64,000 nt of DNA, taken from an uncultured Acidobacteriota bacterium. GTDB taxonomy: Bacteria > Acidobacteriota > Thermoanaerobaculia > UBA5066 > Gp7-AA6. The DNA lies in assembly GCA_963739435.1 (NCBI GenBank), contig CAVUAN010000007.1, forward strand, positions 25,371-89,370, given 5' to 3'. Under the pieces are notes generated by a model. It did not search any database, was not told where the DNA came from, and saw only the letters and a program-made list of their open reading frames with translations. Numbering within the stretch: position 1 is the stretch's first letter; every line of letters begins with the position of its first letter. Position numbers and translations under genes: made by a program. Shown one piece after another: positions 23,882 through 62,600 of the stretch.

Positions 23882-23885
23882 TTTC

Positions 23886-27515: not shown

Positions 27516-28535
27516 CTAGGCGCCGGCAGGCGGAAGCGAAGCAGGGGCGGGAGTTCCGCCATGCAGCTGCCGGTAGCCCATTTCCTTCAAGAGCGCGATG
27601 CGCTTGGCGATGGGGGGGTGGGTGCCGAAGAGGTTGGAGAAGGCGCCCTCGCTCTCGTTCAGCTTCCGGCCGCGCGGGTCGGCGATGCACAGGTGCGCGA
27701 CTCCCGCCTTGATGGAAGCCGTCGGCTCGACGGCGGCGTCGATCTTCTGCAGAGCCGAGGCGAGGGCAAGGGGGTTGCGCGTCAGCTCGGCGCCCGAGGC
27801 GTCGGCCAGGTACTCCCGCTCGCGCGAGACGGCCAGCGCGACGATTTGCGCGATGAACGGGGCGAGGATGATCGAGACGAGCCAGAAGGCGAAGAAGACG
27901 ATCCCGAGGACCCCGCTGCCTCCTCCGTCTCGGTCGTTGCTTCTCCGGCTCGAGCCGCCGCCCCACCACAGACCGCGCCGCGCCCAGTCTGAGAGGAGCA
28001 GGATCGCCCCGGCGAGAGCCGCCACGACGGTCATCAGGCGCGTGTCGTAGTTGCGGACGTGGGACATCTCGTGGCCGATGACGGCCTGGAGCTCCTCGCG
28101 GTTCAACCGGCCGACCAGGCCGGCGGTCACGGCGATCGAAGCCTTTTCGGGAGAGGACCCGGTGGCAAACGCGTTCGGGTCGGGGTCAGGCACGATGTAG
28201 ATCTTCGGCTTGGGCAGGCCGGCGGCGATCGACATCTCCTCGACCACGTTGTCGACGACGCGCTGGGCAGGGTCGGTCAGGTCGATCGGGCGGGCGCTGG
28301 AGGACTCGAGGACCATCTGGTCGCCGCCCTGGACGGACCACCAGGCCGAAAAGCTGCCGACGAGCAGGGCCCCGATCGTGCAGATCGGGAAGCCCGGCGT
28401 GCCCCCGGACCCGTAAAGGAACGCGTCCGCACCGAGGCCCAGAAACACGAGGAAGAGCACGAAGCCGAGCATGAACATCTTCGTGCGCGCCAGGTTGCGG
28501 CGCTGCTGATCGTAGATGTTGGTGGGGAGCGTCAT
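27516..28535 (-). CDS. htpX: M48-family membrane metalloprotease HtpX homolog
   Basis: HEMSH zinc motif (AVIGHEMSHVRNYD) with N-terminal and central TM segments. Confidence 0.85.
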   Translation of the reverse strand: MTLPTNIYDQQRRNLARTKMFMLGFVLFLVFLGLGADAFLYGSGGTPGFPICTIGALLVGSFSAWWSVQGGDQMVLESSSARPIDLTDPAQRVVDNVVEEMSIAAGLPKPKIYIVPDPDPNAFATGSSPEKASIAVTAGLVGRLNREELQAVIGHEMSHVRNYDTRLMTVVAALAGAILLLSDWARRGLWWGGGSSRRSNDRDGGGSGVLGIVFFAFWLVSIILAPFIAQIVALAVSREREYLADASGAELTRNPLALASALQKIDAAVEPTASIKAGVAHLCIADPRGRKLNESEGAFSNLFGTHPPIAKRIALLKEMGYRQLHGGTPAPASLPPAGA

Positions 28536-28549
28536 CTGCCCTCCCTGCT

Positions 28550-28631
28550 GTCATTCCGAGCGAAGCGAGGAATCTACCTCCGTGGTCTCCGACCGGAGCA
28601 GATTCCTCGTCGCGTCGCTCCTCGGAATGAC
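28550..28631. repeat. Nested palindromic REP-like element (GTCATTCCGAGCGAAGCGAGGAATCT ... AGATTCCTCGTCGCGTCGCTCCTCGGAATGAC)
   Basis: Imperfect 26/32-nt inverted arms with an inner CTCCG/CGGAG pair, located between htpX and lemA. It resembles the GTCATTCCGAGCGAAGCGAGGAATC palindromes that are widespread in environmental genomes. Only one copy occurs in this window. Confidence 0.7.
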
Positions 28632-28640
28632 AAGAAGAAG

Positions 28641-29222
28641 CTATTGGGGGCGGAGGTTCAGGTCCACCTTGGGGACCTCGCGCTCCGCGGCGTCCTTGAT
28701 CTCGAACAGCTCCACAGGCTGGAAGTTGAAGGTCGAGGCGATGAAGTTGTCGGGAAAGACCTGCTGAGCGATGTTGAAGCGCGTCGCGATGTCGTTGTAG
28801 AACTGCCGCGCGAATCCGATCTTGTTCTCTGTCGAGGACAGTTCCTCCATCAGGGACTTGACGGCTTCGTTCGACTTCAGCGTCGGGTAGTTCTCCGTCA
28901 GCGCAAACAGCTTGGACAGGGTTTGCGTGAGCTGGTTTTCCTTGTCGGCCGCGTCGGCCACGCCGCGCGCCGCCACGGCGCTGTTGCGGGCCTGGATGAC
29001 CTTTTCGAGGGTGTCCTGCTCGAACTGCATCTCACCCTTGACCGCGGCGATGAGGTTGGGGATCAGGTCGTGCCGGCGTTTCAACTGGACGTCGATCTGC
29101 TTCCAGGCGTTGGTCACCTGGTTCTTGAGCGTGATGAGGTTGTTGTACCGCCAGATCGCCCAGATGGCGGCCAGAACGACCAGGACGACCAGGAACATCA
29201 AACAACCGCCGATCGCGCCCAT
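28641..29222 (-). CDS. lemA: LemA family protein
   Basis: N-terminal TM segment plus the LemA consensus (YNNLITLKNQVTNAWKQIDVQLKRRHDLIPNL), paired as usual with an M48 protease gene. Confidence 0.85.
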   Translation of the reverse strand: MGAIGGCLMFLVVLVVLAAIWAIWRYNNLITLKNQVTNAWKQIDVQLKRRHDLIPNLIAAVKGEMQFEQDTLEKVIQARNSAVAARGVADAADKENQLTQTLSKLFALTENYPTLKSNEAVKSLMEELSSTENKIGFARQFYNDIATRFNIAQQVFPDNFIASTFNFQPVELFEIKDAAEREVPKVDLNLRPQ

Positions 29223-29270
29223 ACGTCTCTAGCTCCTCCACCTGTACATACGAAAAACTGTCACCTATGT

Positions 29271-30398
29271 TCAGGCGTTCAGGCCCTGGCGCAGCTCGCG
29301 GGCCAGGATCTCGACGGCCGACCGCGTACCGCCGGTCAGCTTCTCCTTCCAGACGGTTTCGGTCTCGAAGCGCTTGTCGCCGACCGCCTCGGACCACGGC
29401 CGCAGGGCGGCGTCGAGCTCGCCCGCCGACCAGACGTCTCCGCCGCGGCTGCGGATCATGGCGATGACGTAAGGCACGATGCGGATGAAGGCCCGCAGCG
29501 AGGGCGAGGACTTGATCGAGTACTTGCGGCCGGCGAAGGCCACGGGGAAGGCCCGGCCGGCGGCTTTGAAGTAGTTCAGGAAGAACCGGCGGGCGTTTTC
29601 GCGGAACTCGCGCGAGATCCTTCCGCCTGCCGCGTCCATGGCCGCGAAGACGTCGCGCAGCTCGTCGGCGAGCGCGGCCTGCGTCACCGTGCCCTTGCCG
29701 ATCCCGAGAACCTTGATCTGGTGGTAGAGCGGGGAGTGCTCGTCCTCGTTCAGCGCCCGGATCACGTCGTGAGCCGCGGCGAGGTTCTCGTCGCGGTAGA
29801 GGCGGCGCCCGGCCAGGGACATCAGGTGCGACGGGTTCAGCTTCGTGTGCTTGCTGTTGATCGTGACGAAGAGCTCGACGACCTGGTCGGGAGTCAGCGC
29901 GTCGAAAACGACCGCCGGAACCTGAAAGTCCTTGAGGTTGTGCTTCTCGGCGAGCTGGTGAAGGGCGAGGAGGCGGTGCTGGCCGTCCAGGGCCCGGAGG
30001 ATGCCCGAGTCATCCGGCAGCTTGAGCGTGCCCGTGTCGGCCCGGCTCGAGGAGGGCGTGAAGTCGAGCCGCCGGTCCGAGACCAGGAGCACGCTGCCGG
30101 GGATCGCCGGCAGCGTCCCGGAGTCCGCGCACTGGAGGTAGTACGCCACCAGCTCTTCGATCTTCTTCTGGATGATCGGGCGCTGGTAGGCCTGTTCCGA
30201 AGCCGAGATCCTCTTTTCGAGAAACTCCCAGTTGACGCGGCCCGTCGCCTTCTTGGCTTTTCCACGGGTCGTCTGGGTCTGGGGGCCAAACGAGAGGACC
30301 TCGAAGCCGACGAGAGACTGCAGGTCCGCTCCCGAGAGCAGGGCCTCGTAGAATCGCACCCCGAATTGATTGAGACGAAGCGAGGGAACGGAGAGCAT
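29271..30398 (-). CDS. DGQHR-domain protein (DndB-like, ParB-nuclease superfamily)
   Basis: Literal DGQHR motif (LRALDGQHRLLAL) and the FVTINSKHTKL segment typical of DndB-like proteins. The start is ATG 30398 or GTG 30404. Confidence 0.7.
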   Translation of the reverse strand: MLSVPSLRLNQFGVRFYEALLSGADLQSLVGFEVLSFGPQTQTTRGKAKKATGRVNWEFLEKRISASEQAYQRPIIQKKIEELVAYYLQCADSGTLPAIPGSVLLVSDRRLDFTPSSSRADTGTLKLPDDSGILRALDGQHRLLALHQLAEKHNLKDFQVPAVVFDALTPDQVVELFVTINSKHTKLNPSHLMSLAGRRLYRDENLAAAHDVIRALNEDEHSPLYHQIKVLGIGKGTVTQAALADELRDVFAAMDAAGGRISREFRENARRFFLNYFKAAGRAFPVAFAGRKYSIKSSPSLRAFIRIVPYVIAMIRSRGGDVWSAGELDAALRPWSEAVGDKRFETETVWKEKLTGGTRSAVEILARELRQGLNA

Positions 30399-30461
30399 CC
30401 TCACCCCCCTTTAGCGGCGCGATTATACGCAAGCGTGAAAACGGGGTTTTTGGGGGTCGGG

Positions 30462-30851: not shown

Positions 30852-31598
30852 ATGAAACGCCAGCTGACCCTCCTGCTCCTGCTGACGGCCGCGCTCAACC
30901 TCGAGGCCGCAACCCCCGAGGCGAAGGCCTATTCCTCCCACCTGATGGTGGACCAGGACGTCGTCGTCTGCGCTCGGGTCACGGGGATCCTGGAGGAGGT
31001 CTACGTCGACCGGGGCAGCGCCGTGACCAAAGGCCAGCCGCTCGCTCAGCTCGATCCGCGCGAGTTCGACGCCGACGTCAACCAGGCGAAGGAGGAGATG
31101 GAGCTGGCCCGGATCGAGGCCGATCGCGCCCAGGCACTCGCTGCCAGCAATGTCCTTTCCAAACAGGACCTCGAATCGAAGCGGTCCCAATACGCGGTGG
31201 CCGTCGCGAAGTGGGAGAAAGCAAAGGCCGTCCGCAACTACGCCACGATCCGCGCACCGTTCGCCGGCGTCGTGACCGAGAAATACGCGCGGGTCGGGCA
31301 GAAAGTCATCGAAGACAAGGCCGATCCGATGTTCAAGGTCACGGCCATGGAGCCTCTCCTCGCGCGGATCTACGTGCCCGAAAAGGACTTGCTCACGCTG
31401 CGCCGCGGCGCGGCGGTCGAGGTCGTGCCGGTCAGCTTCCCGCAGGCCAAGACGACCGGTTCCGTCGAGTTCATCAGCCCGACAGTCGACGCCGCCAGCG
31501 GCACGTTCCAGGTCATCGTTCACGTCCGGCGCGATCCCGCTCAACCGGTCCTGCGGCCCGGCCTCGCCGTCGAGGTGCGGTTCAAGGCGGCGCCGTAA
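30852..31598 (+). CDS. Short HlyD/MFP-type periplasmic adaptor (248 aa)
   Basis: Signal peptide MKRQLTLLLLLTAALNLEA. Barrel-sandwich and hairpin pattern (VTGILEEVYVDRGSAVTKGQPLAQLD ... IRAPFAGVVTEKYARVGQ). Confidence 0.75.
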   Translation: MKRQLTLLLLLTAALNLEAATPEAKAYSSHLMVDQDVVVCARVTGILEEVYVDRGSAVTKGQPLAQLDPREFDADVNQAKEEMELARIEADRAQALAASNVLSKQDLESKRSQYAVAVAKWEKAKAVRNYATIRAPFAGVVTEKYARVGQKVIEDKADPMFKVTAMEPLLARIYVPEKDLLTLRRGAAVEVVPVSFPQAKTTGSVEFISPTVDAASGTFQVIVHVRRDPAQPVLRPGLAVEVRFKAAP

Positions 31599-31609
31599 GC
31601 CTCACGGCC

Positions 31610-32341
31610 ATGGGCGTAAATCCTCCGCGACGCCCGCGCTCCTCCCGGCGGCTGCAGTCGACCCTCGACCGCGTCCTGATCCACGACATCAAGAACATGG
31701 GTTTTCGGCTCCAGATGCTCCTGTCGAACCTGGACGAGCATTATGGGGACCCGGATTTCAAGCGGTCGGTTCAGGACCTGCTCGCTTCGACTGTCGATCG
31801 CCTGGAGGCGGTCGCGGGGCGCTGGCAGGCGCACCAGGACGCGCTGCTCGTCAAGGTCTCGCTCGACTTGAACGAGGTCCTCCAGGCAGTTGCCACGTCG
31901 GCAACCTCCAACGGGAGCCGCCTGCGCGGCCCGGCTGCGCAGAAGCTCCCGACCCTGGCCTTGGCGCTCGGCTCGCCGCCGCCCGTCTGGGGCGACTCCG
32001 ACTACCTGAAGGACGCGTTTGTCAGCCTTCTCGACAACGCTCTGGAGGCGGCCGGGCCGGGAGGGAAGGTCGTCATCCGCAGCTTCGCTTCCCGGGCTCG
32101 GGGGCGCTCGCGCGCGGCCATCGACTTCATCGACAACGGTTCGGGCATGGAGGCCGAGGCGGTCCGAGAACGCCTGCTGCATCCCTTCCGGACGACCAAG
32201 GAGACGGGAGTGGGCCTCGGCCTCTACACGGCGGCGCAGATCGTCAAGCATCACCGCGGCAACTTCCGGATCCTTTCGCAGCCGGGTGGTGGGACTGTCG
32301 TGCGCCTGACTTTCCCGGCGGCAGCTCCCGCGGAGCCATGA
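31610..32341 (+). CDS. Cytoplasmic histidine kinase (no TM or sensor domain)
   Basis: H-box LIHDIKNMGF, N-box LLDNALEA, G1 DNGSGM and G2 GVGLGLY. Confidence 0.8.
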   Translation: MGVNPPRRPRSSRRLQSTLDRVLIHDIKNMGFRLQMLLSNLDEHYGDPDFKRSVQDLLASTVDRLEAVAGRWQAHQDALLVKVSLDLNEVLQAVATSATSNGSRLRGPAAQKLPTLALALGSPPPVWGDSDYLKDAFVSLLDNALEAAGPGGKVVIRSFASRARGRSRAAIDFIDNGSGMEAEAVRERLLHPFRTTKETGVGLGLYTAAQIVKHHRGNFRILSQPGGGTVVRLTFPAAAPAEP

Positions 32342-32369
32342 CCGATCCCCGGGCAAGCTCGGGCGGGTC

Positions 32370-33717
32370 TTGATCGTCGAGGACGACGACTTCCTGCGCG
32401 ACCAGCTCACCTGGGCGCTCAAGGGGGACTTCGAGGTCGTGGGCGCGCGCGATGCGACCTCGGGACGAAAGGAGCTCTCCGGAGATGTTCGACGTCTACC
32501 TCTTCGACCTGAGGCTGCCCCCCTCGGGACAGGTGGAGGAAGGGCTCTCGCTGCTGGCGGAGGCGCGGAAGCGCGACGCGGATGCCACGGTCGTCATGAT
32601 GTCCGGGGAAGGGGAGCGGGCCCTGGCGCTGCGCGCGATCGAGGCCGGTGCCTTCGACTTTTTCCAGAAACCCGTCGACAAGGGGGAGCTGCGCGTCATC
32701 CTGGTGCGGGCGCTCGAACGGCGGCGGCTGCTCTCGGACAACCAGGCCCTGCGCCGCCCGTCCGCCGGGGAAGGGCCGCTCGCCCGGTTGATCGGCGAGA
32801 GCCCCCCGATGCAGCGCCTGCGAGCGGACATCGGGAAGGTGGCTCCCACCGACGCCTCGGTCCTGATCCTGGGGGAGAGCGGCACCGGAAAGGAACTGGT
32901 CGCCGGGTCGATCCACGCCGGCAGCCGCCGCTCCGTCGAGGCCTTCGTCGCCGTCAACGCCTCGGCGATGCCCGAATCGCTGGCGGAGGCTGAGCTTTTC
33001 GGCCACGAGAAGGGGGCCTTCACCGGCGCGATCGCTTCGAGGCCGGGCCGCTTCGAGATGGCCCACCGGGGCACCCTGTTCCTGGACGAGATCGGCACCC
33101 TCTCGGCGGGCATCCAGTCCAAGCTGTTGCGGGCGCTCGAGGAACGGGAAGTCGAGCGCGTCGGGGGGCGGCGGCCGATCCCGGTCGATTTTCGCCTCGT
33201 GTCGGCCACCAACGACGACCTCGAGGCCCGGATCGCGGCCGGGACCTTCCGCGAAGACCTCTTCTACCGGATCAACACGGTCGTCTTGTCGCTGCCGCCT
33301 CTTCGGGAGCGAAAGGGGGACCTGCCGCTTCTGGCGGCGCACTTCCTGTCGAAATTTGGAGAGCGGCATGGAAAGCCCGCCCGCCGCCTCTCGCCCGGTG
33401 TCCTCGAACGCCTCGAGGCCCACCCCTGGCGAGGCAACGTCCGGGAGCTCGAGCACGTCCTCGAGATGCTGGTTCTCTTTTCGGAAGGAGAGGAGATCGG
33501 CGAGGAGGACCTGCCGCGAGCGCTGCGGCGGCCCAACCACGCGTCAGCCGGCGCTGCGGGCCGGGGGTTGCCCTTCGGCAAGGCCGTCGAAGAGTTCGAA
33601 AAGGCTCTTCTCTCCGAAGCCATCGCCGCTTCAGCCGGCGTCAAAGCCGAAGCCGCCCGCCGCCTGGGCCTCGACGCGAACCAGATCAAGTACCTCTGCC
33701 GGAAATATGGGTTGTAG
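32370..33717 (+). CDS. Sigma54-dependent response regulator (NtrC family), 1 frameshift as assembled
   Basis: Receiver domain (IVEDDDFLRDQL ... FDLRLPP), AAA+ domain with GESGTGKE and the GAFTGA loop (EKGAFTGA), and a C-terminal HTH. The frame changes near 32480. The TTG 32370 start is provisional, since an ATG at 32338 overlaps the kinase stop in another frame. Confidence 0.85.
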
Positions 33718-33721
33718 TCGC

Positions 33722-33757
33722 GGTGAAAGATTCAACTGTCGGGTGAAACGTTCACCC
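33722..33757 (+). promoter_or_regulatory. Putative enhancer (UAS): two GGTGAA-N3-TTCAMC palindromes 20 bp apart
   Basis: GGTGAAAGATTCAAC (33722-33736) and the perfect palindrome GGGTGAAACGTTCACCC (33741-33757) lie 65-100 bp upstream of the sigma54 promoter. Confidence 0.55.
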
Positions 33758-33821
33758 GAGATCGGCCGGCGGAACTCGAAGAATCGCTCGAAAACACTGA
33801 GCTTTCCTCAAGTGAACGAGT

Positions 33822-33837
33822 TGGCTCGAGGCTTGCT
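33822..33837 (+). promoter_or_regulatory. Sigma54 (-24/-12) promoter TGGCTCGAGGCTTGCT
   Basis: One mismatch to TGGCACG-N4-TTGCW, with exact GG-N10-GC spacing. It lies 30 nt upstream of ATG 33868, which has SD AAAGGAGG. Confidence 0.75.
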
Positions 33838-33867
33838 CCTGAGGAAGGACAGAAAAGGAGGCCACAA

Positions 33868-34101
33868 ATGGCAAAGGAAGTCAGGATCAAGCTCACGGAA
33901 GCGCAGAGGTCGAAGATCAAGTCAGCCACGGGCAAGAACATGACGGAGATCCGGGTCACGAGCCTCGGAAAGGGTCCTGCGGCTAACGTCGCCTCGGCCC
34001 GCTCGGTTGCTCGTGGTGCTGCGCCTCGTCCGGTCGCCCGCGGCGCTCCAGGCCCGCGCCGGGAGCCCGCATGGCCACGTCGCGCCCTGTGGCACGCGTA
34101 A
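33868..34101 (+). CDS. Sigma54-driven small protein (77 aa; Lys-rich N-terminus, Arg/Ala/Pro-rich tail)
   Basis: It is the only ORF between the sigma54 promoter and the intrinsic terminator. Sequence starts MAKEVRIKLTEAQRSKIKSATGKNMTEIRVTSLGKG... RPVAR-like repeats continue in a second frame, so the 3' part may carry an indel. Confidence 0.55.
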   Translation: MAKEVRIKLTEAQRSKIKSATGKNMTEIRVTSLGKGPAANVASARSVARGAAPRPVARGAPGPRREPAWPRRALWHA

Positions 34102-34199
34102 CTACGGCGCGTGCGAGCCGGGCCATCGAAGCGAGTACACGCGGCCTCCTTCCGCGCCGACAACGACTCGAACTAGATCCCCGAGCTTCGATCTCTTGC

Positions 34200-34230
34200 A
34201 GCGCCCCGCTGGAAGCGGGGCGCTTTTTTC
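34200..34230 (+). terminator. Rho-independent terminator
   Basis: 10-bp stem AGCGCCCCGC/GCGGGGCGCT with loop TGGAA, followed by TTTTT. It abuts the stop of the convergent M50 gene. Confidence 0.85.
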
Positions 34231-36421
34231 TTACCAGAGGATGGTCTGAAACCAGCGGCGCAGGACGCGCGCGGAAAGAGCCGCGGGCGACGTTCTCGGC
34301 CCGTAGATCTTGGCCGTCACGAGCGCTCCCGGCCGGAGCTGGCGGTCGGAGTTTTCGAACTCCACCCGCACGACGAAGCGGTCGGGGAACTGGCCCGGCA
34401 CGAGCCTTTCAGTCAGCCCGGAAGCCGTGACGGGCTGATCTTCCGTGGCGGGTGCGATGCGGATGATCTTGCCCCGGACCGTTTTGCCTGGCCGCTCGGG
34501 AAGAAGAGCTGAGACCGGCGCGCCGACGAGAGGTCGTCCAGGCGCCGCTTCGGAGACCGGCAGGTCGGCGACGACCGTGCGGACGTCGCCCACCTCGGCC
34601 AGCAGTGCTCCGGCCTGGACGAAGCGGCCGTTCAGGTCCTGGATCCGGGGAGTCAGGATCTGCCCCTCGATCGGGCTTCGGACGTCCAGTCTCGTGCGCC
34701 GCATCTGGTCGCTCGCCAGGGCTGCGGATGCCGACGATTCGAGCGCGTCACTTTCACGGATCTTTTCGGGCGAAGCCTCCTGCCGGGCCGCGCTGGCTGC
34801 CTTGAGGAACCGCTCTCGCTGGGCATTGTCCCTGCCATGGAGTTGTCGGCTGCGGCGCTCGAGAGGCGGAAAAGCTCGGCTCCCTTCGCGACGTCCTGCG
34901 CCTCGGTGAACGGCCACCGCCGTGACGAATCCGTCCTCGGGGGCCTCGATACGGACGGTCTCGGCCGGCCGCAGGACGCCTTCGACCCACATGCGGCGTC
35001 GGGTCCAGGGAAGAAAAAGGACGAGCAGGATGAGGAGCGCGGCGGCGGCGAGAACGGGGCGGCTTCGTTTTGCCATGAGCAGGTCCCTCTTGTCCAGATA
35101 GAAGAGGCGGATCGTTTTGATGACGAGCTTGACCCGTTTCTTGAAGATGAATGCCAGCGTGAGAACGAGCAGAACACCCGCGAGATTCGGAAAGTACCTG
35201 GAGTAGAGGTTGTTGAAGAGCCCTCCGATGAACGACATGATGAACCCGATGTAGAGGAGGGCGGGGACGCCGTAGATCCAGTAGATCCGCCGGCGTCTTT
35301 TTGAGGCGACCGGGATGTCGACCGAGAGGCGCAGGACGTGCTTCTGGAATCGGGCGCCGATGTACCGGAACGACTCCTCGCGCAGCTCCGGGATCTCCAG
35401 GATGCTCGAGATGGCGTAGTAGCCGTCGATCTTGATCGAGCGGGTTGATGTTGAAAAAGATCGTCGAGACACCCGTAAAGAGCATCGTCTTGTAGGCGAT
35501 CTCGTGCAGGAGCGTGTCCGGGTAGCTGGCGACCCACAGAAACGTCGCGCCCGCACAGATGAATCCCTCGATGTAGATCCCGGCCGTCGTGACCCACAGG
35601 CGCTGCCACTTGCTCTGGAAGAGGATCGAATCGGTGGTGTCGCAGTAGAACGCCGGAGTGAAATAGAGGAGCGCGAGGCCGATGTCGTGCACCTCGCCGC
35701 CGTAGATCTTCGTGGCGTAGGCGTGGCCCATCTCGTGGATGAAGCCGACGATGCAGAGAAGGACGAAGAACTGGAGGGCGTCGACCAGCGGCTTGCGGAG
35801 GAACGCGTAGAGCTCGTAGGTCCCCGGCCAGATCGGCGCCCAGTGCTGGACGAAGACGCCCACGGTGAAGAGGGCCAGGACGGCCCAGAGACGACCATCG
35901 GCGGCGTCCAGATCCAGCGGACGTACTCGACGCTGCGGTTGAGCATTCGGTTCGGGTCGAAGACGTGGAACATGATGAAGAAGGGGTTGAAACCCTCCGC
36001 CTTTTCCTCGGCGGCCCGTTTCCGCGCCGTCTTGTAGTTGGCGAGAAGGACGAGGTTCCGCTCGGCGGCCCCGCGTTCGATCAGCTCGATCTTCCGGAGC
36101 ATCTCCTCGAAGTCGAGGATCAGCGAGTACGCGATCGGCTCGTCCGGAAAGGAGCTCTGGTACTCCTGCCAGATCTCGTTTCTCGTCCGCGTGCCGTCGA
36201 AGAGCTGGATGAAGTTCCACTCCGAATCGTCGAAGTAGTAGTACTTGAAGGTTTCCGGGTTCTTCACCACCCAGACGGGCTTCGCCCCCGTGGATCACGC
36301 GCCGGGCGACGATGTCCTTCCGCAGGGAGGGCCGTTCGTCGGGTGCGCCGTGCCGCTGGGCGAGCGCCCGTGTGCTGTCCCCGAGATCCGCGGCCGACGC
36401 GAGGCGCGTCGAGACAACCAT
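34231..36421 (-). pseudogene. PqqD/RRE-like domain + M50 (site-2-type) zinc metalloprotease + HlyD-like C-terminal domain; at least 5 frameshifts as assembled
   Basis: N-terminal VWVVKNPETFKYYYFDDSEWNFIQLFDGTRTRNEIWQEYQSSFPDEPIAYSLILDFEEMLRKIELIE fits the PqqD pattern. HEMGH zinc motif (FIHEMGHAYATKIYGG) within TM helices. The C-terminal IEGQILTPRIQDLNGRFVQAGALLAEV ... VTAKIYG is a barrel-sandwich domain. The pieces lie in ORFs 34754-38263, 34231-36270 and 34653-35609. Confidence 0.7.
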
Positions 36422-38868
36422 CAGGGAAGGAGCGGCCAGATCTTCGCCCAGATCCAGCGCGCAGGCTTGCGGACCAGGAGCGTTGCGATGTTGTGGTAGC
36501 CGACGCGGATCTTCGCCCGCCCGAGCATCCCGGTGCGCAGCTCTCCCGTGGGATTCGGCACGGCCACCTCGGCGATCACGAACCTCTCCTTGCCCTCTTC
36601 GAGGATCCGGGCGCCGACCCGCGCCACCTCTCCCTGGAGTGTGCGCGTCGGGAACGTGTTGAGCTTGACAGCCGCAGGCATTCCGGCGCGCACGAGTGAG
36701 GAATCCTGCCTCGTCCACGGCGACCTCGACGGTGACGTGATCCGAGAACTCGGCCACGACGCAGAACTCCGACCCTTTCGAAAGCACCTGTCCGACTTTC
36801 TCTTCGAGGCGCGGCGTGATGATGACGCCCGAAGTCGGCGCCCGGAGAGCCGTCCACGCCAGCGTCTGCTGCTCGAAAGCAACACGGGCGGCCGCCTCGT
36901 CGTGGCGCGACTGGGCCGCGAAGAGAGCGCCGGCGTCGGCAGCCTGCCGGGCCACGCGAGGTCCCGGTCGGAAACCTCGAGAGCGGCCTTCGCCTCGGCG
37001 AGGGCGGCGCGGAATGGCTGCTCTTCGATTTGAGCAATCCGGTCGCCGGCCTTCACCCGATCGCCCTCGCGGTGGTCGATCGAGACGACGATTCCGTCGA
37101 CGGCCGCCGCGACGACGCTCCGGCTGGCGGGGAGGACGCGCGCCGGCCCGCCGACGCGGAGACGCCAGGGGACGAGGAAGAGAACGATGAGCGCCGCGGC
37201 GACGCCGGTGACCCACCGGCGGCGGGCCCTCGCCGGCAGGTGCGCGAAGCGGCGCTGTCTCTCGAGCAGGGGCTTGAGAAATCCCGAGAGGGGGACCTGC
37301 TGGTAGAGCTGCGCGTTGCGGACGGCGACGGTCGCCTGGTTGACCAGGATCGCGAGCAGGTCGCGCGTCTCCTCGATCGAAGATGATCGGGCGCCTTGCT
37401 TTCGAATGCCGAGAACGCCGAGTTTGCCTTCCTCGTCCTTCAGGATCGCGCCGTAGACGGCGTTCAGTTGCCGCTTTCCGCGAAAAACGAGCGGAACTTC
37501 TCCTCCGTCTCGGGCCGATCGGTCGGCGAGCGTTCCGTCGGGCAGCTGAGTCACGCCGACGTCCGAGCCGCACAGGAAGACCCACTGGAGCAGCTCCTCG
37601 GTCCGCCGGACTTCCGCGGTCTTGCGATCCACATCGAGTCGAACCGGAGACAGCCCCGAGCCGCAGCTGGCCCCTTCTGAAAGACGGCGATCGACGCGCG
37701 GTCGTAGGTGATGAGGGCGGAGGCCGCCGTTGACGATGGCCTGCATGACCCGCTCGAGATCCAGGGTCGAGGTGATCTCGCGGCTGACGGCAAGCAGGGC
37801 GTCGAGCTCTTCGACCTTTTTCTCGGCCTCGTACCGGCGGGCGTTCCGGATGGCGCGGATGGCCTGGCGGGCGAGATCCTGGAGCAGCTCCTGGTCTTCC
37901 TCGGAGAACTCGGGGCGGCGCCCGCGCTTGTTGGCGACGATGATGGCGCCCTCGACCTCGTCCTCGTCGACTAGGGGCGCCGCGAGCAGCGACCGAACCG
38001 CGTAGCCCGGCTCCTCGCGTCGCCGCGGGGTCGTCCTCAGGCAGCCCGTTCTTGCGCACGGCGGCCCGGTCGGCGACGACCTCGCCGACGACGCTGGCTG
38101 CCCACGGCATCGGGCGGCATGTCGACCTCGTAGTTTTCGTTGACGACCGTGCGTGAGAGAACGACCTCTCCCGTCGTCTCGTCGAGGAACCAGAGCGAGC
38201 CGGTCTCTGCCGCCGTGAGGTCGACCGCCTTGCGCGCGATGATGTCGGAGAGAGCCGAGGCATCGAGCGTCGAGGCGAAGGCCTTCGAGAGGTCGTAGAG
38301 GTTCGTCAGCCGTTCGATGGCGTGCAGCATGCCGACGCTCTTGCGCTCGGCGCGGAGCGACCTGGCGAGCGCGCCGGCCGCCGTAGCGCGCCGGCGGGGC
38401 CGAGCCCCTCGATGGCGGCCTCCATCGCCGCCGGCTCCCGGTAGAAGAGGCCGAGCAGGAAGGAGACGCCGACTTCGGCTTCGAGCGGCAGCGCCAGCAA
38501 CGCGCCGGCCCAGTCCGGCGCGCCCGCCAGGAACGGGTCCTTCGAGCCGGAGAGCTCTTTGCGGTGGAACGCGATCGCCTCGCGGCCGCGCAGGAGCCGG
38601 AGGACGGCGCCTTCGTCGCGTCCGGCCGTGCGCCGCAGGAAGGGCCGCATCCCCGGTCCGTGGACGCCCGCGCAGAGGTAGACCGGGTTGGACGGGGTCG
38701 GGCGCCCAGACGACCGCCGCTTCGGCTCCCGCCGCCGGCCGAGCACCAGCGGGCCGCCCAGGCCGCTGTTTGGGCCAGGTTCTCGCAGGCAACGAGCTCC
38801 GCCAGGACGGCCGTCTCGAGGCCGCCGGGGGGCAGTATCGGAGTCCGACCGGTGGGTCGGTCTGCCAT
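36421..38868 (-). pseudogene. Three-GAF + TM + HlyD-like adaptor protein; about 10 frameshifts as assembled
   Basis: GAF-like blocks: ...GVSFLLGLFYREP...; LTNLYDLSKAFASTLDASALSDIIARKAVDLTAAETGSLWFLDE; LLAVSREITSTLDLERVMQAIVNGG ... VRNAQLYQQ. A TM segment (WVTGVAAALIVLFLV) follows, then VDGIVVSIDHREGDRVKAGDRIAQIE ... LRAPTSGVIITPRLEEKVGQ. The stop shares 1 nt with the M50 gene ATG. Confidence 0.65.
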
Positions 38869-49033: not shown

Positions 49034-51750
<2,717 letters not shown>

Positions 51751-59676: not shown

Positions 59677-62600
59677 CTAATCGAACCGAACCGAGACGAT
59701 CTTGGAGCAGCCGGGCTCTTCCATGGTCACGCCGTACATCACGTCGGCTGTCTCCATCGTGCGCTTGTTGTGCGTGATGGCGATGAACTGGGTCTCGTCG
59801 GTCATCTCGCGCAGCAGGCGCGTGAATCGGTCGATGTTGGCTTCATCCAGGGGCGCGTCCACCTCGTCCAGGATGCAGAAGGGCGAGGGCTTGAATCGGA
59901 AGATCGCCATCAGGAGGGCGATCGCCGTCAGCGCCTTCTCGCCGCCCGAGAGGAGCAGGATCGACTGGTTTCGCTTGCCGGGCGGGTGGGCGATGATCTC
60001 GACACCCGATTCGAGGAGGTCGTTCTCGTCCAGGAGGCGCATCTCGGCCGAGCCGCCCCGGAAGAGCCGCGTGAACATCTCCGAGAAGTTCGCGTTGATC
60101 GCCGTGAAGGCGAGCTGGAAGCGCTCCGAAGACGTCGCGTTGATCTTGCGGATGGACTCCTGCAGCTCGGCGATCGACTTGAGCAGGTCGTCGCGCTGGG
60201 TCGTCAGGAAGACGAGCCGCTCCGAGCTCTCCTTGTGCTCCTCGTAAGCGAGGACGTTGACCGGGCCCATGCGTTCGATCGAGGCTGCGCAGCTCCGCCG
60301 CTTCGGCCTCGAGCGCGGCGAGGGCCTCTTCGGAAGTGTCCTCGGGCAGCGCGAGCTCGTCGGGTGGAACGCCGAACTCCTCCGTGGCGGAAGCGACGGC
60401 ATGCTCGAGATCGGAAGCCACGCGAGTGCACGACACCTCCGCCTCGAAGCGGGTCTCCCGTGCAGCGTCCAGAACGGCGCGGCCGGCCTTCGTGGTTTCC
60501 TCGGCCCTCTCGACGCGGGCATGGCCCTCGAGGGCCGCCGCCGACGCTCCGTCGAGGCGCACGGCCTGCTCGCCGCGGGAGGTGAGATTGGCCGACTGCC
60601 TCGCGCGGGCTTCCCGCTCCTCGTTGGCCAGCTCCTCGGCTCGCGCCGAAAGGCGCCGGCCTTCCTCGAGCGCATCCCCGACGCGCCGGTCGAGGGCCGA
60701 CCGCGCCTCGGCCAGCTTCTCGCGCGCGGCCTCGGTCGAGCGGCGCCGTTCGGCCGCGACCTCGGCCTCGGTGCGCCGGTGGGAGAGATCCTCGGCGGCC
60801 GCCATGGCGAGGGAGCGGGCCTCGGGAAGCTGCGAGGCCAGGGCGTCCGTGCGCTCGCGCGCGGCGGTTTCGCGCCCGGCGTGGCGCTTCTCTTCGTCTT
60901 CGAGCTCCCGGCGCTGCGCCGCAGAGCGCGTTGGCCTCGGCCTGGAGCGTCGCCGCCTCGGCCGCCGACGTCTCGGCTTCCTTGCGGAGGCGGTCCCGCT
61001 CGGCCCGCCGCTCCTCGAGGCGCCCGTCGAAGGCGGAGAGCAGCGAGGCCGCCTGGCGCTCGCGCTCGCGCCGCGCCGGCAGGTCCGCCTCCCTGGCCCG
61101 CCGCGCGCTCCGGTGCTCTTCGACCGACCGCTCGACGGCGGCAAGGCTCTCGCGGGCGCCCGCGGTCCGCGACGCGAGGCCGGCGATCTCCTTGCGCAGC
61201 GGAGTAGAGCCCGGCGGCCTCGGGCGGCGTGGCCACGACGCGCGCGAGCGAGCCCCGCACGAGCTCGCGGCGGCGCGTGACGAAGGTCGTCGAGGGATGC
61301 TTGTCCGCCAGGCGCAGAGCGTCGGCGAGGGTCTCGACGAAGGTTACCGGGGGCAGGGCGGCTCGTTCGGCCGGCGTCAGGCTGGCGAAGTTTTCGAGCC
61401 CGATCTCCCAGCCGCCGAGTGCTCCCGCGACAGCGGCATGGTCCGTCTCGCGCGACCAGTCCGCGCGCACGAGACCTGCGGAGGGCAGGGCGCCGGCCGA
61501 AGCGAGGGCGCGGGCCGCGTCGCCGGATGCGAGCAGCGCGTCGAGCTCGCCGGCGAGCAAAAGGTCCACGGTCTCTTCCCAGCCGTGGGCGGGCCGCAGC
61601 CGGTCGGAGAGAACTCCCTGCACGCGCAATCCCGCGGCGTCGAACGCGCCGCGCGTCTCCGCGGCGTCGCCTTCGCGGCTCTTCGCGATCTTCGTCGAGG
61701 GCCGAGAGCCGGTGCAGGAGAGCGCCGAGGGCCTCGCGGGCGGCGTCGCGCTCGGTCTCGGCCTCCGAGAGAGCCGCCGCGATGCGCGCCATCTCGGCCT
61801 TCCGAGTCGGCGACCTCGCCCGCGCGTCCTCGCGGCGTCTTGCCGAGAGAAGCCGGCGTTCCGTTTCCGCCGCCGCGACCTCGGCCTCGCGCGCGGAAAG
61901 CTCCGTGGCCAGCCGGGTCGCGCTCTGCGACAGGCGGGAGAGCATGGCCGCGAGGCGCTCGGCGGCGAGGTCGGCTTCGTGGCGGGCGTTGCGGGCGGCC
62001 ACGCGGTCGCCGGCCGCGGCGAGCGCGTCGGCGCGGGCGGCTTCGAGGTCGCGCTCGAGCGCCGAAAGGGCTGCGCCCGCGGCTGTCGCGCGGTGGTCCG
62101 CCTCCTCGCGGGCCTGGGAGCGGACGCGCGATTCGTTGACGGCGCGCTCGAGCCGTTCGTCGGTCTCGGCGAGCTCGCGGGCGGCGCGCGCCTGCTCGGC
62201 CGACACGTCCCGCCCCTCCCGCTCGAGAGCCTCGCGGCGCACGGCGATGTCGGCGGCCGCGCGCCGGTTGCCGTCGAGCAACGTGTCGTCGCGCTGGATC
62301 GACGCCTCGAGCGTCGCGACGGCGTCGCGCAGCTGGTCGCGCAGGGCGTCGGCCTCGGCAGCCAGGAGGCGCGCCTGCGCGAGCTCCGACTCGGCGCGCC
62401 CGAGCGCGGCGGCCGCCTCCGCCTCGCGGTCGCGCCGCTCGTCCCGAAGGCGCTCGGCCTCGGCGGCTGACGTCGACGAGGCGGTCGTGCCGGACGCGCG
62501 CGAGCGAGGCGCGGCGCGCCCGGAGCGCCTCGGACTGCTCCTTGTAGCGCGCGGCCTTCGATGCCTGGCGCCTCAGCGACGCGACGTTCTTCTCGATCTC

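What the first reader, a model, noticed from the sequence alone, without database searches (positions are those of the whole stretch)
33722..34230. Textbook self-contained sigma54 unit: twin palindromic UAS, -24/-12 promoter, SD, 77-aa ORF, strong terminator
Seen in sequence:
- GGTGAAAGATTCAAC and GGGTGAAACGTTCACCC have centres 20 bp apart and lie immediately after the activator gene stop.
- TGGCTCGAGGCTTGCT has exact GG-N10-GC spacing.
- AAAGGAGG precedes ATG 33868.
- A 10-bp GC stem plus T5 lies at 34200-34230.
- The transcript (about 380 nt) would carry only this ORF.
- The peptide has a Lys-rich N-terminal part (MAKEVRIKLTEAQRSKIKSATGKNMTEIRVTSLGKG) and an Arg/Ala/Pro tail with RPVAR-like repeats. 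These repeats continue in a second frame beyond 34060, so the true C-terminus may differ.

Inference: the neighbouring kinase/activator pair exists mainly to switch on this tiny gene. That is typical of signalling or precursor peptides and of stress-induced small proteins.
Basis: partly seen in the sequence, partly recalled or inferred. Interest (0 to 1): 0.7.

Follow-up and report, generated by a model that had tools for sequence, protein, structure and literature searches.

The report
Sigma-54-driven tandem-repeat peptide precursor gene
The tiny gene is real: it belongs to an undescribed family in soil Acidobacteria, with a conserved 35-residue head and a species-specific tail of many identical short repeats, switched on by its own sigma-54 regulator and always found with a membrane protease-export gene set.

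Summary

Comparison with 134 related loci shows these elements are conserved, not chance:
- The -24/-12 box lies upstream of 85 of 86 family copies.
- Two GGTTGAAAAATTCAACC-like palindromes, 19-23 bp apart, occur in 85 of 85.
- A hairpin plus T-run follows 64 of 80.

The 77-aa ORF is truncated. The window carries about one indel per kb, and the original ORF most likely ran 33868-34176 (102 aa).

The product has a conserved beta-alpha-beta N-domain with no Pfam, NCBIfam or PDB match. It is followed by 4-26-residue units repeated 3-27 times. I found 55 different unit sequences across species. Units within one gene differ almost only at third codon positions.

The gene always sits with five others, in two deeply diverged lineages and despite gene rearrangement:
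- a PrsK-like kinase
- a PrsR-like sigma-54 activator
- an M50 protease::HlyD fusion
- a GAF-HlyD protein
- a short HlyD adaptor

A third lineage joins the same N-domain to double-glycine leader peptides.

Best reading: a leader-bearing multi-copy peptide precursor, tightly induced and then processed and exported. The regulation is well supported. Processing and export are inferred from context only.

The parts
30852..31598 (+). Short secreted HlyD/RND-type membrane-fusion protein (signal peptide MKRQLTLLLLLTAALNLEA), first gene of the MFP-HK-RR operon.
   Evidence: 59% identical to L012 6990-7742, which scores TIGR01730 RND_mfp 155.8 bits (cutoff 94.9). The same kind of gene sits elsewhere in the clade B module.
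31610..32341 (+). Sensor-less histidine kinase of about 240 aa (H-box HDIKN plus HATPase_c). It has no TM or sensor domain.
   Evidence: HATPase_c 5.5e-18. The best NCBIfam hit is the C-terminal transmitter of PrsK (TIGR02916), below cutoff. It is 62% identical to the L012 kinase in a single frame. No TM segment was found.
32337..33717 (+). Sigma-54 enhancer-binding response regulator (REC, AAA+ with GAFTGA, Fis-type HTH). It is frameshifted in this assembly near 32478-32490. The start coordinate is approximate.
   Evidence: Sigma54_activat 2.8e-66, HTH_8 and GAFTGA at residue 188. The REC N-terminus (VLIVEDDD...) is in frame 3 at 32361-32477 and the rest is in frame 1. The orthologue scores TIGR02915 PrsR 435 bits, below the 502.6 cutoff.
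33721..33737 (+). Distal UAS site (cGGTGAAAGATTCAACt), probable activator binding site.
   Evidence: Family PWM score 22.1. Centre lies 93 nt upstream of the TGG of the -24 box.
33741..33757 (+). Proximal UAS site (GGGTGAAACGTTCACCC, a perfect palindrome), 20 bp from the distal site.
   Evidence: Family PWM score 15.8. All 85 family copies scanned have two such sites, mostly 19-23 bp apart. The core motif occurs only at these two places in the window.
33822..33836 (+). Sigma-54 -24/-12 promoter TGGCTC-N5-TTGC. The expected transcription start is near 33847.
   Evidence: TGGY-N7-TTGC is present 43-81 nt upstream of the ATG in 85 of 86 family copies, against 35 other matches in 2.64 Mb.
33853..33860 (+). 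Shine-Dalgarno sequence AAAGGAGG.
   Evidence: Read directly from the sequence. An AGGAGG-like element sits at the same position in all family copies.
33868..34101 (+). The 77-aa ORF as it stands in the assembly. Residues 1-35 form the conserved N-domain. Residues from about 64 to 77 are out of frame.
   Evidence: GC3 is 0.83 in frame 0 over 33868-33975.
33868..34176 (+). Reconstructed original ORF of about 102 aa: frame 0, then a missing base near 34045-34065, then frame +2, then an extra base near 34140-34145, then frame 0 to TAG. The tail is an Ala/Arg-rich degenerate repeat ending ...ASFRADNDSN.
   Evidence: The C-terminus resembles those of relatives (ARATDNAD, SRSLDNAD, ARSTQND). The stop-to-terminator distance matches the family.
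34200..34230 (+). Intrinsic terminator: 11-bp GC-rich stem, 3-nt loop, T6.
   Evidence: An equivalent hairpin plus T-run follows 64 of 80 family genes.
34231..36502 (-). Convergent M50 intramembrane metalloprotease fused to a periplasmic HlyD adaptor domain. It is a single ORF of about 731-760 aa in orthologues. Here it is frameshifted at 35437, inside the NxxPxxxxDG motif.
   Evidence: The daptide_HExxH and YydH/LiaK models and the HlyD domains are split over two frames in the window. Intact L012 orthologue: HExxH at 259, NINPLIKIDG at 355, at least 5 TM segments, HlyD domain at 514-739. Window sequence at the shift: CTC-G-ATC.
36421..38868 (-). GAF(x2-3)-TM-HlyD adaptor protein, about 808 aa in orthologues. 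The N-terminal GAF region carries at least three frame changes here.

Best explanation
**What it is**

The locus is a tightly regulated, monocistronic sigma-54 transcription unit. The adjacent response regulator is an NtrC-type enhancer-binding protein. It probably binds the two palindromes just after its own stop codon and activates the TGGCTC-N5-TTGC promoter. The resulting transcript of about 380 nt ends at a strong terminator.

**What it encodes**

The gene product belongs to an undescribed family. Each member has:
- a conserved N-terminal domain of about 35 residues, predicted beta-alpha-beta
- a short linker
- a tail made of one short peptide unit (4-26 residues) repeated 3-27 times

The unit differs from species to species.

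**How it most likely works (inferred)**

1. The N-domain acts as a leader that targets the protein to the co-conserved membrane machinery.
2. That machinery is an M50 intramembrane metalloprotease fused to a periplasmic HlyD adaptor, a GAF-TM-HlyD adaptor and a short secreted adaptor.
3. The machinery removes the leader and may cut the tail into units.
4. It passes the product out of the cytoplasm.

The result would be a burst of many identical, species-specific peptides, or one repetitive polypeptide.

**This window's copy**

The window's copy is interrupted by two indels that are most likely assembly errors.

**Shown versus inferred**

| Status | Points |
|---|---|
| Shown | The cis elements and their conservation; translation of the ORF; selection on unit sequence; the six-gene co-occurrence |
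| Inferred | Activator binding; RpoN dependence; leader function; cleavage; export; the role of the product |
For: **Regulation**
- The -24/-12 box is present in 85 of 86 copies, against a background of 35 matches in 2.64 Mb.
- All 85 copies scanned have two UAS sites, mostly spaced 19-23 bp. The proximal site is usually centred 71-109 nt upstream of the -24 TGG.
- In the window the core motif occurs only at these two sites; 0.00 are expected by chance.
- A terminator follows 64 of 80 copies.
- The activator has a sigma-54 interaction domain with GAFTGA and a Fis-type HTH.
- Clade B has the same layout with a different palindrome and TGGCAT-N5-TTGC.

**The ORF is a real protein**
- The N-domain is conserved in 80 genome loci and 54 metagenome loci.
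- Units within one gene differ almost only at codon position 3. L054 gives 0.036/0.012/0.417 and L016 gives 0/0/0.25.
- Across 77 proteins there are 1753 synonymous against 1420 non-synonymous differing codon pairs.

**Link to the processing and export genes**
- The gene sits with HK, RR, M50::HlyD and GAF-HlyD wherever the contig reaches far enough in the clade A loci. The short adaptor (MFP) was confirmed in the window and in L008, L012 and L014.
- The same set occurs in clade B, where the activator is only about 46% identical, GC is 54% against 68%, and the short adaptor sits in a different position.
- The M50 domain is closest to RiPP maturation proteases: daptide HExxH at 155 bits and YydH/LiaK at 44 bits. 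JGI names it 'putative peptide zinc metalloprotease protein'.
- EpeP, an M50 protease, is thought to both cleave and export its peptide (PMC10885120).

**Leader role of the N-domain**
- Clade C joins the same N-domain to a double-glycine leader motif and a core of about 8-30 residues, in up to six tandem genes.
- In clade B every unit keeps an invariant (R/S)ANP motif, as expected for a repeated recognition or cleavage site.
- The protein has no signal peptide or TM segment, so any export must be leader-dependent.
Against: - There is no experimental evidence for transcription, RpoN dependence, cleavage or secretion.
- The M50::HlyD genes are convergent with the small gene, not co-transcribed, and lack the sigma-54 promoter.
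- No ABC, RND or MFS energising transporter and no outer-membrane factor were identified in the conserved neighbourhood.
- No modification enzyme is nearby, so it is not a RiPP in the strict sense.
- The M50 domain scores below the cutoffs of the daptide and epipeptide protease families.
- Clade A tails share no common cleavage motif.
- Within clade A the wider neighbourhood (LemA, DndB-like, G6PD) is also syntenic. Linkage inside that clade alone is therefore weak evidence; the argument rests on clade B.
- In the window itself at least four of the six genes are frameshifted. If the indels are real, this copy is dead.
Confidence: 0.6

Rival explanations
1. The product is an intracellular stress protein, an intrinsically disordered or single-helix hydrophilin similar to LEA proteins. 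Sigma-54 induces it, and the neighbouring protease/adaptor genes are functionally unrelated.
For: - The tail composition is hydrophilic: A 25%, S 12%, R 11%, K 7%, no Cys and almost no aromatics.
- Some units are 11-12 residues long, as in LEA repeats.
- AlphaFold predicts one long helix for an Ala/Arg-rich tail.
- Tight sigma-54 control suits stress genes.
- The protein has no signal peptide.
Against: - The six-gene set is kept through rearrangement and deep divergence.
- The N-domain is shared with double-glycine leader peptides.
- Units such as AKPL, NTPRA, SPSLK, DLSAQ and GLREE are neither LEA-like nor able to share one fold.
- No LEA or other repeat family is matched consistently.
- Selection for identical units, with total turnover between species, is unusual for a bulk protectant.
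Confidence: 0.15
2. The tail is exported whole, not cut into units. It then acts as a repetitive polyelectrolyte in the envelope or matrix, as a surface coat or as a partner for exopolysaccharide or mineral. This would be analogous to the small PEP-CTERM proteins controlled by PrsK/PrsR.
For: - The kinase and activator are closest to PrsK and PrsR.
- PrsK/PrsR drive single-gene sigma-54 operons for abundant matrix-associated proteins (PMC1569441, PMC9850573).
- Units fall into cationic (+1 to +4) and anionic (-1 to -2) classes.
- Clade A has no common internal cleavage motif.
Against: - The protein has no signal peptide, PEP-CTERM or other anchoring signal.
- No EPS or exosortase genes were seen in the conserved neighbourhood.
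- The invariant RANP motif in every clade B unit looks like a repeated processing site.
- The partner protease is of the peptide-maturation type.
Confidence: 0.2
3. This particular copy is a decaying pseudogene cluster. The indels in the small ORF, the activator, M50::HlyD and GAF-HlyD are real mutations.
For: - At least seven frame changes lie between 32340 and 38870.
- One frame change lies in the catalytic NxxPxxxxDG motif of the protease.
- The tail here is the least regular in the family (period identity 0.32).
Against: - Comparable frame changes occur in unrelated conserved genes of the window: near 23883, near 50850, and at least five in a 1195-aa gene at 59680-63190. That gives roughly one indel per kb, as in poorly polished long-read assemblies.
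- Several long-read MAG copies of the family show the same run-on frameshifts (L013, L018, L048, L062, L080).
- The cis elements, SD and terminator are intact.
Confidence: 0.15
4. The unit encodes a small regulatory RNA, and the ORF is fortuitous.
For: The transcript is short, with a strong terminator. Rfam gives sub-threshold hits to sRNA models at 34158-34238.
Against: - The Rfam hits cover only the terminator hairpin and fall far below the gathering scores (26 against 43 bits).
- The N-domain is conserved as protein across more than 130 loci while the DNA diverges.
- The repeats show third-position variation.
- The SD is conserved.
Confidence: 0.01

Closest known systems
PrsK/PrsR/RpoN control of single-gene PEP-CTERM operons (Haft 2006, PMC1569441; Aquincola and Zoogloea floc genes, PMC9850573)
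   Same: - An NtrC-type response regulator and its kinase drive small single-gene operons.
- The operons have an upstream activator motif, a spacer and a -24/-12 box about 70 nt before the start codon.
- The window's regulators give PrsR and PrsK as their best NCBIfam hits.
   Different: - Both regulators score below the family cutoffs (435 < 502.6 and 134 < 300).
- The kinase lacks the whole PrsK membrane/sensor part.
- The target has no signal peptide and no PEP-CTERM.
- The UAS sequence is different.
- No exosortase or EPS genes are nearby.
Leader-bearing bacteriocin/RiPP precursors with dedicated protease and export (double-glycine, Nif11 and NHLP leaders; HlyD-type adaptors; Haft 2010, PMC2887384)
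   Same: - A conserved N-terminal leader-like domain precedes a hypervariable C-terminal part.
- Tandem paralogues occur.
- A dedicated protease and HlyD-type adaptors sit next door.
- A related lineage (clade C) has a true double-glycine motif after the same N-domain.
   Different: - Clades A and B have no GG motif.
- There is no C39 peptidase or ABC transporter.
- No modification enzyme is present.
- The 'core' is a long array of identical units.
- The N-domain matches no curated leader family.
M50 maturation proteases of epipeptides and daptides (YydH/EpeP/LiaK, daptide HExxH protease; PMC10885120)
   Same: - It is an intramembrane HExxH / NxxPxxxxDG metalloprotease encoded beside a small peptide gene.
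- EpeP is proposed to both cleave and export its peptide.
   Different: - Here the protease is fused to a periplasmic HlyD adaptor domain and is accompanied by two further adaptors.
- It scores below the equivalog cutoffs.
- There is no radical-SAM partner or other tailoring enzyme.
Eukaryotic multi-copy peptide polyproteins (fungal Kex2-processed repeat proteins, PMC7329392; alpha-factor and neuropeptide precursors)
   Same: - One precursor carries many copies of the same short peptide.
- Copy number varies between close relatives.
- Peptide sequences turn over between species.
- Selection keeps the units identical.
   Different: - This is a bacterial system with no signal peptide.
- There are no dibasic Kex2 sites.
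- The protease is of a different class.
- Processing into units has not been shown here.

Membership tests
Enhancer-dependent sigma-54 promoter unit | GG-N10-GC (-24/-12) element at a fixed distance upstream of the gene | tested here: met
   TGGCTC-N5-TTGC at 33822-33836. It is conserved in 85 of 86 family copies, against 35 other matches in 2.64 Mb.
Enhancer-dependent sigma-54 promoter unit | Upstream activator sites about 70-150 nt from the promoter | tested here: met
   All 85 copies scanned have two palindromes, mostly 19-23 bp apart and usually centred 71-129 nt upstream of the TGG. In the window they occur uniquely at 33722 and 33742.
Enhancer-dependent sigma-54 promoter unit | Cognate bEBP with an AAA+ sigma-54 interaction domain (GAFTGA) and a DNA-binding HTH | tested here: met
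   Sigma54_activat 2.8e-66, GAFTGA at residue 188, HTH_8. The bEBP gene is always the adjacent upstream gene.
Enhancer-dependent sigma-54 promoter unit | RpoN-dependent transcription start about 12 nt after the GC; activator binding | not testable with these tools
   Needs 5'-RACE or RNA-seq, an rpoN mutant and EMSA. No RpoN box was found within the 64-kb window, which says nothing about the rest of the genome.
PrsK/PrsR PEP-CTERM regulatory system | Regulator and kinase reach the TIGR02915 / TIGR02916 cutoffs | tested here: not met
   435 bits against a cutoff of 502.6, and 134 bits against 300. The kinase aligns only to model positions 482-679.
PrsK/PrsR PEP-CTERM regulatory system | Target protein carries a signal peptide and a C-terminal PEP-CTERM sorting domain | tested here: not met
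   The tails end in short polar sequences (for example ...ADNDSN...SGEDI). No PEP motif or TM segment is present in any of the copies listed.
Double-glycine-leader bacteriocin / RiPP precursor | Conserved leader followed by a variable core | tested here: met
   The N-domain has 19 invariant positions among 12 sequences, and the tails are unrelated between species.
Double-glycine-leader bacteriocin / RiPP precursor | GG/GA cleavage motif and a C39 peptidase-ABC exporter | tested here: not met
   Clades A and B have no GG motif. Only clade C has one, with sub-threshold TIGR01847 scores of 13-14 bits against a 15.7 cutoff. No ABC transporter was seen in the conserved neighbourhood.
Double-glycine-leader bacteriocin / RiPP precursor | Post-translational modification enzyme in the cluster | tested here: not met
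   None lies among the six conserved genes of clade A or clade B.
Epipeptide / daptide M50 maturation protease | HExxH and NxxPxxxxDG catalytic motifs in a polytopic membrane domain | tested here: met
   L012 orthologue: HEFSH at 259, NINPLIKIDG at 355, at least 5 TM segments. In the window the second motif is broken by the indel at 35437.
Epipeptide / daptide M50 maturation protease | Reaches the equivalog cutoffs (NF041824, NF058609) | tested here: not met
   155.5 bits against 300, and 44 bits against 225.
LEA / hydrophilin or pentapeptide-repeat proteins | Match to the corresponding Pfam repeat models | tested here: not met
   No LEA or PF00805 hit. Only scattered low-complexity matches were found, for example Decapeptide PF25296 in one member.

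The most novel reading that the evidence does not exclude
Thermoanaerobaculia and a second, unidentified lineage seen only in metagenome contigs (clade B) may use a previously unrecognised kind of bacterial polyprotein. A leader domain would deliver a tandem array of up to about 27 identical short linear peptides to an M50 protease-adaptor fusion. The fusion would cut the array into units and export them. Each species would thus gain a private, highly amplified peptide signal or effector. The two-component system would sense it, closing a sigma-54 autoinduction loop. This would be a Gram-negative counterpart of the agr/com peptide circuits, built from entirely different parts.
Probability: 0.25. 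Interest if true: 0.85.

Novelty: new variant of a known kind. Interest (0 to 1): 0.72.

Why it matters
Acidobacteria are among the most abundant soil bacteria, and almost nothing is known about how they signal or compete.

**What the locus offers**
- It exposes a conserved six-gene module with a clean on/off switch.
- Its product has a very unusual evolutionary signature: identical units within a gene and complete turnover between species.
- The N-domain is a new leader-like module that curated databases do not cover.
- The fusion of an M50 protease to an HlyD adaptor suggests a cleave-and-export device that has not been studied.

**How it can be tested**
The family gives a ready-made, computationally defined set of more than 130 natural precursor variants. 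These can be used to test:
- how the protease recognises its substrate
- whether bacteria make multi-copy peptide polyproteins as fungi and animals do

**A practical point**
The window shows how indel-rich long-read assemblies truncate such repeat genes and hide them from annotation.

Tried and rejected
- **Curated families:** Pfam, NCBIfam and PDB sequence searches of the small protein and of N-domain alignments found no family.
- **Fold search:** Foldseek of the N-domain model against the PDB gave nothing below E = 4.
- **Ribbon-helix-helix idea:** I considered this for the N-domain because of a weak ParD hit (E = 0.11) and the G-x-x-x-T/S-E-I-R pattern. It was not reproducible across members, and AlphaFold predicts beta-alpha-beta. 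I left it unresolved.
- **Spurious profile hits:** The large repeat proteins at the top of the profile search (P0013, P0119) are chance LT(D/E)xQK-type matches to Gram-positive surface repeats and LTXXQ proteins. They are not relatives.
- **Promoter significance in the window alone:** Not significant, at 3 matches against 2.44 expected. Only conservation gives it weight.
- **UAS consensus search in the window:** The 17-mer with up to 3 mismatches found nothing, because the local sites have at least 4 mismatches. The shared 13-mer core did work.
- **GC3 frame plot:** It could not place the frameshifts, because Ala/Arg/Gly/Pro codons make all frames GC-rich. Composition, the family C-termini and terminator distance were used instead.
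- **Distant M50::HlyD homologues:** The search returned only close Thermoanaerobaculia relatives among the 120 listed, so it gave no new context.
- **Literature:** Five full-text searches found no description of the family or the module.
- **Rfam:** Only sub-threshold terminator look-alikes were found.
Full report
**1. The observation**

- The activator ORF ends at TAG 33715-33717.
- GGTGAAAGATTCAAC starts at 33722, and the perfect palindrome GGGTGAAACGTTCACCC follows 20 bp later.
- TGGCTC-GAGGC-TTGCT lies at 33822-33836.
- AAAGGAGG lies 7 nt before ATG 33868.
- An 11-bp perfect GC-rich stem with a 3-nt loop and T6 lies at 34200-34230.
- ORF 33868-34101 encodes 77 aa.

Within the window alone, the shared core GGTGAAANNTTCA occurs exactly twice. 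Both copies are here, and shuffles expect 0.00. The -24/-12 pattern by itself is not remarkable, at 3 matches against 2.44 expected. Rfam finds only sub-threshold look-alikes of the terminator.

**2. The ORF has relatives, and they change the picture**

A protein search returned eleven other small proteins of 44-127 aa. They share the first 35 or so residues (MAKEVRIKLTEAQRSKIKSATGKNMTEIRVxSLG) but have unrelated, internally repetitive tails.

A scan of one genome per species found 87 matches, and the best 80 were kept as loci. All but one are labelled Acidobacteriota or Thermoanaerobaculia MAGs; one carries an Acidithiobacillales label.

Each locus encodes a protein of about 76-227 aa: the conserved N-domain, a linker that often reads G-x-N-P-A-V, and then a tandem array of one short unit. 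Examples are AKPL x22, NTPRA x27, DLSAQ x25, GLREE x17, KAMRAQ x15 and GRAAGKSIA x16.

I counted 55 different unit consensus sequences, 4-26 residues long. They are either cationic (+1 to +6 per unit) or anionic (-1 to -2). The tails are 25% Ala, 12% Ser and 11% Arg, with no Cys and almost no aromatics.

Close relatives differ in copy number, for example L050 against L051 and L084 against L087. Eight loci carry two paralogues about 700 nt apart.

A profile search of 1.84 billion representative proteins found only 114 clusters, so the family is narrow. Neither Pfam, NCBIfam nor the PDB holds a family for the N-domain.

AlphaFold predicts strand 4-8, helix 11-21 and strand 27-31 for the N-domain. 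pLDDT is 75-93.

**3. The tail is translated and under selection**

Successive units within a gene differ almost only at third codon positions.

| Locus | Position 1 | Position 2 | Position 3 |
|---|---|---|---|
| L054 | 0.036 | 0.012 | 0.417 |
| L016 | 0 | 0 | 0.25 |
| L023 | 0.033 | 0.011 | 0.278 |

Over 77 proteins the rates are 0.168, 0.129 and 0.362, with 1753 synonymous against 1420 non-synonymous differing codon pairs.

The arrays are therefore not fresh slippage products, and they are not non-coding. The amino-acid sequence of each unit is being kept identical while the DNA drifts. Between species, in contrast, the unit is replaced altogether.

**4. The window's copy is truncated by indels**

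- The last 13 residues of the 77-aa ORF (REPAWPRRALWHA) contain W and H, which family tails lack.
- A family-like sequence continues in frame +2 (ARMATSRPVARVTTARASRAIEASTR).
- Frame 0 then ends ...ASFRADNDSN* at 34176. This resembles relatives' C-termini: ARATDNAD, SRSLDNAD and ARSTQND.
- The terminator T-run is 49 nt from that stop, within the family range of 38-74 nt. It is 124 nt from the TAA at 34101.

One missing base near 34045-34065 and one extra base near 34140-34145 restore a 102-aa ORF.

Such frame changes are not special to this gene:

| Gene | Position of frame change |
|---|---|
| Activator | Near 32478-32490; its REC N-terminus reads in another frame |
| M50::HlyD | At 35437, inside the NxxPxxxxDG motif (CTC-G-ATC) |
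| GAF-HlyD | At least three times between 38000 and 38830 |
| Unrelated conserved genes | Near 23883, near 50850, and at least five times in 59680-63190 |

That is about one indel per kb. Several long-read MAG copies of the family show the same run-on errors. An assembly artefact is the likeliest cause. True decay cannot be excluded without reads.

**5. The sigma-54 unit is conserved**

- *Promoter.* TGGY-N7-TTGC lies 43-81 nt upstream of the ATG in 85 of 86 family copies. Only 35 other matches occur in 2.64 Mb of locus sequence on both strands.
- *UAS.* A weight matrix refined on the regions upstream of the promoters gives the consensus GGTTGAAAAATTCAACC. All 85 copies scanned have two sites above a 0.1% false-positive threshold. 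The sites are mostly 19-23 bp apart, and the proximal one is usually centred 71-109 nt upstream of the TGG. The matrix was trained on these same regions, so the count is somewhat circular. The in-window uniqueness test is independent.
- *Other elements.* All copies have an AGGAGG-like SD. Of 80 copies, 64 have a hairpin of -10 kcal/mol or stronger followed by a T-run within 110 nt of the stop.
- *Paralogues.* Each tandem paralogue has its own UAS pair, promoter and terminator.
- *Activator.* It is an NtrC-type regulator with GAFTGA and a Fis-type HTH. It is always the gene immediately upstream.
- *Scope.* No other conserved -24/-12 site appears in the loci, so within the locus the small gene is the only evident target.

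**6. The gene set around it**

In intact orthologues such as L012 the neighbourhood reads as follows:

1. A secreted short HlyD/RND-type adaptor (250 aa).
2. A 236-aa histidine kinase with no sensor or TM part, closest to the transmitter of PrsK.
3. The activator, closest to PrsR but below cutoff.
4. The small gene or genes.
5. On the opposite strand, a protein of about 731-760 aa with a polytopic M50 metalloprotease domain (HExxH, NxxPxxxxDG), a final TM segment and a periplasmic HlyD domain.
6. Also on the opposite strand, an 808-aa protein with two or three cytoplasmic GAF domains, one TM segment and a periplasmic HlyD domain.

The M50 part is closest to the daptide and YydH/LiaK peptide-maturation proteases, below their cutoffs. 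JGI labels it 'putative peptide zinc metalloprotease protein'.

Within Thermoanaerobaculia the wider region (LemA, DndB-like, G6PD) is also syntenic. Linkage there could therefore be mere inheritance.

**7. A second lineage settles the linkage**

The weakest profile hits form a distinct group. Their N-domain reads MADKKEVVIKLTDEQRxQIKSATGQDLTELKVG, and every unit in their repeats keeps an (R/S)ANP motif. Examples are LTDRANPTS, EETARANPFSVGA and DEQRANPLGVTL.

A metagenome scan recovered 54 loci. In this clade B the DNA is about 54% G+C, against 68% in clade A. The activator is only about 46% identical to the window's.

The same six kinds of gene are nevertheless present: a kinase (here with a HAMP domain), the sigma-54 regulator, the repeat gene, M50::HlyD, a plain HlyD adaptor and GAFx3-TM-HlyD. 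The plain adaptor now sits between the two large genes instead of upstream of the kinase.

The promoter is TGGCAT-N5-TTGC in 25 of 35 distinct upstream regions. Two or three palindromes of a different sequence (GGGGTAAT...ATTACCCC) precede it.

The same parts list, kept through rearrangement and deep divergence, is good evidence for one functional module.

**8. A third lineage hints at what the N-domain does**

In clade C (L125-L131) the same N-domain is followed by ...LSEKDLDxVSGG and a core of about 8-30 residues, in up to six tandem genes. That is the layout of a double-glycine leader peptide.

The bacteriocin GG-leader and Nif11-leader models give weak, sub-threshold hits to that stretch.

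The neighbours there are a SET-domain protein and a TPR/GT41 glycosyltransferase, with no M50 or HlyD genes.

This supports the view that the N-domain is a leader-type recognition module. It does not prove it.

**9. Mechanism**

*Shown:* the cis elements and their conservation, a translated and selected repeat tail, and the six-gene co-occurrence.

*Inferred:*
- The activator binds the palindromes and drives RpoN-dependent transcription.
- The N-domain targets the protein to the M50::HlyD, GAF-HlyD and adaptor assembly.
- The protease removes the leader and may cut between units. The RANP motif in each clade B unit looks like a repeated site.
- The adaptors conduct the product across the periplasm.

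EpeP is an M50 protease thought both to cleave and to export its peptide (PMC10885120).

*Weak points:*
- The genes are convergent and not co-transcribed.
- No energising transporter or outer-membrane factor was identified.
- There is no tailoring enzyme.
- Clade A units share no common cleavage motif.
- The clade A kinase has no sensor domain, so the input signal is unknown.

The main rivals are export of the whole tail as a polyelectrolyte, and a cytoplasmic hydrophilin. AlphaFold predicts a long helix for an Ala/Arg-rich tail, but Pro-rich units cannot share that structure.

**10. Comparison with what is known, and novelty**

- *Regulation.* The unit is an ordinary, very clean example of an enhancer-dependent sigma-54 promoter. 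Its nearest described analogue is PrsK/PrsR control of single-gene PEP-CTERM operons (PMC1569441). It fails the membership tests for that system on scores, kinase architecture and target type.
- *Product.* It works like a leader-bearing peptide precursor with a dedicated protease and exporter. It is not a member of the GG-leader, Nif11/NHLP, epipeptide or daptide families. Its array of identical units resembles fungal and animal peptide polyproteins (PMC7329392) more than any bacterial precursor I could find.
- *Literature.* Five full-text searches found no description of the family.

I rate it a new variant of a known kind. Interest is 0.72. The regulation is textbook, but the gene family and its module appear undescribed, are readily testable, and have an unusual evolutionary signature.

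Noticed in passing
window 23883; 32478-32490; 34045-34145; 35437; 38000-38830; 50850; 59680-63190: Conserved genes that are single ORFs in short-read MAGs are split over two or more frames here. That is about one indel per kb, which suggests an under-polished long-read assembly. The indel at 35437 creates a GATC, and the first one in the small ORF lies near a CCAGG. Both are methylation motifs known to trouble nanopore basecalling.
   Followed up: partly
L125-L131 (metagenome contigs), e.g. L126 1355-5064: A third lineage has the same N-domain fused to a double-glycine leader motif and a core of about 8-30 residues, in up to six tandem genes. A SET-domain protein and a TPR/GT41 glycosyltransferase sit next to them. 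This may be a separate, undescribed peptide-modification system.
   Followed up: partly
P0087 and P0116 (proteins from the profile search): These proteins of about 190 aa have hydrophobic N- and C-terminal segments and two internal copies of the N-domain motif (e.g. EVSIQLTDEQRRQIKLATGQVLTELKV). P0089, P0100 and P0106 also carry two copies. The module is therefore not restricted to repeat-tail precursors.
   Followed up: no
window 27516-30404 (minus strand) and loci L003-L080: A LemA-family gene, a DndB/GmrSD_N-like gene and a 339-aa gene lie upstream of the module. They are conserved at 80-93% identity across Thermoanaerobaculia, far higher than the module genes (40-70%). The reason for this unusually strong conservation is unexplained.
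   Followed up: no
window 31610-32341 and L012 7744-8454: The clade A histidine kinase has only DHp and catalytic domains, with no TM, HAMP, PAS or GAF domain. The clade B kinase has a HAMP domain. How the clade A kinase receives a signal is unknown. Possible partners are the GAF-HlyD protein or the co-operonic adaptor.
   Followed up: partly
L021, L023, L024, L026, L037, L043, L049, L069: All loci with two tandem precursor genes carry acidic or zwitterionic units (DLSAQ, GLREE, DTSIESA, AEIGEAGLRG). None of the cationic-unit loci is duplicated.
   Followed up: no
L068 (JBLMYG010000459.1): One locus with the full module is labelled Acidithiobacillales, while all the others are Acidobacteriota. 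This is probably a binning error and not horizontal transfer.
   Followed up: no
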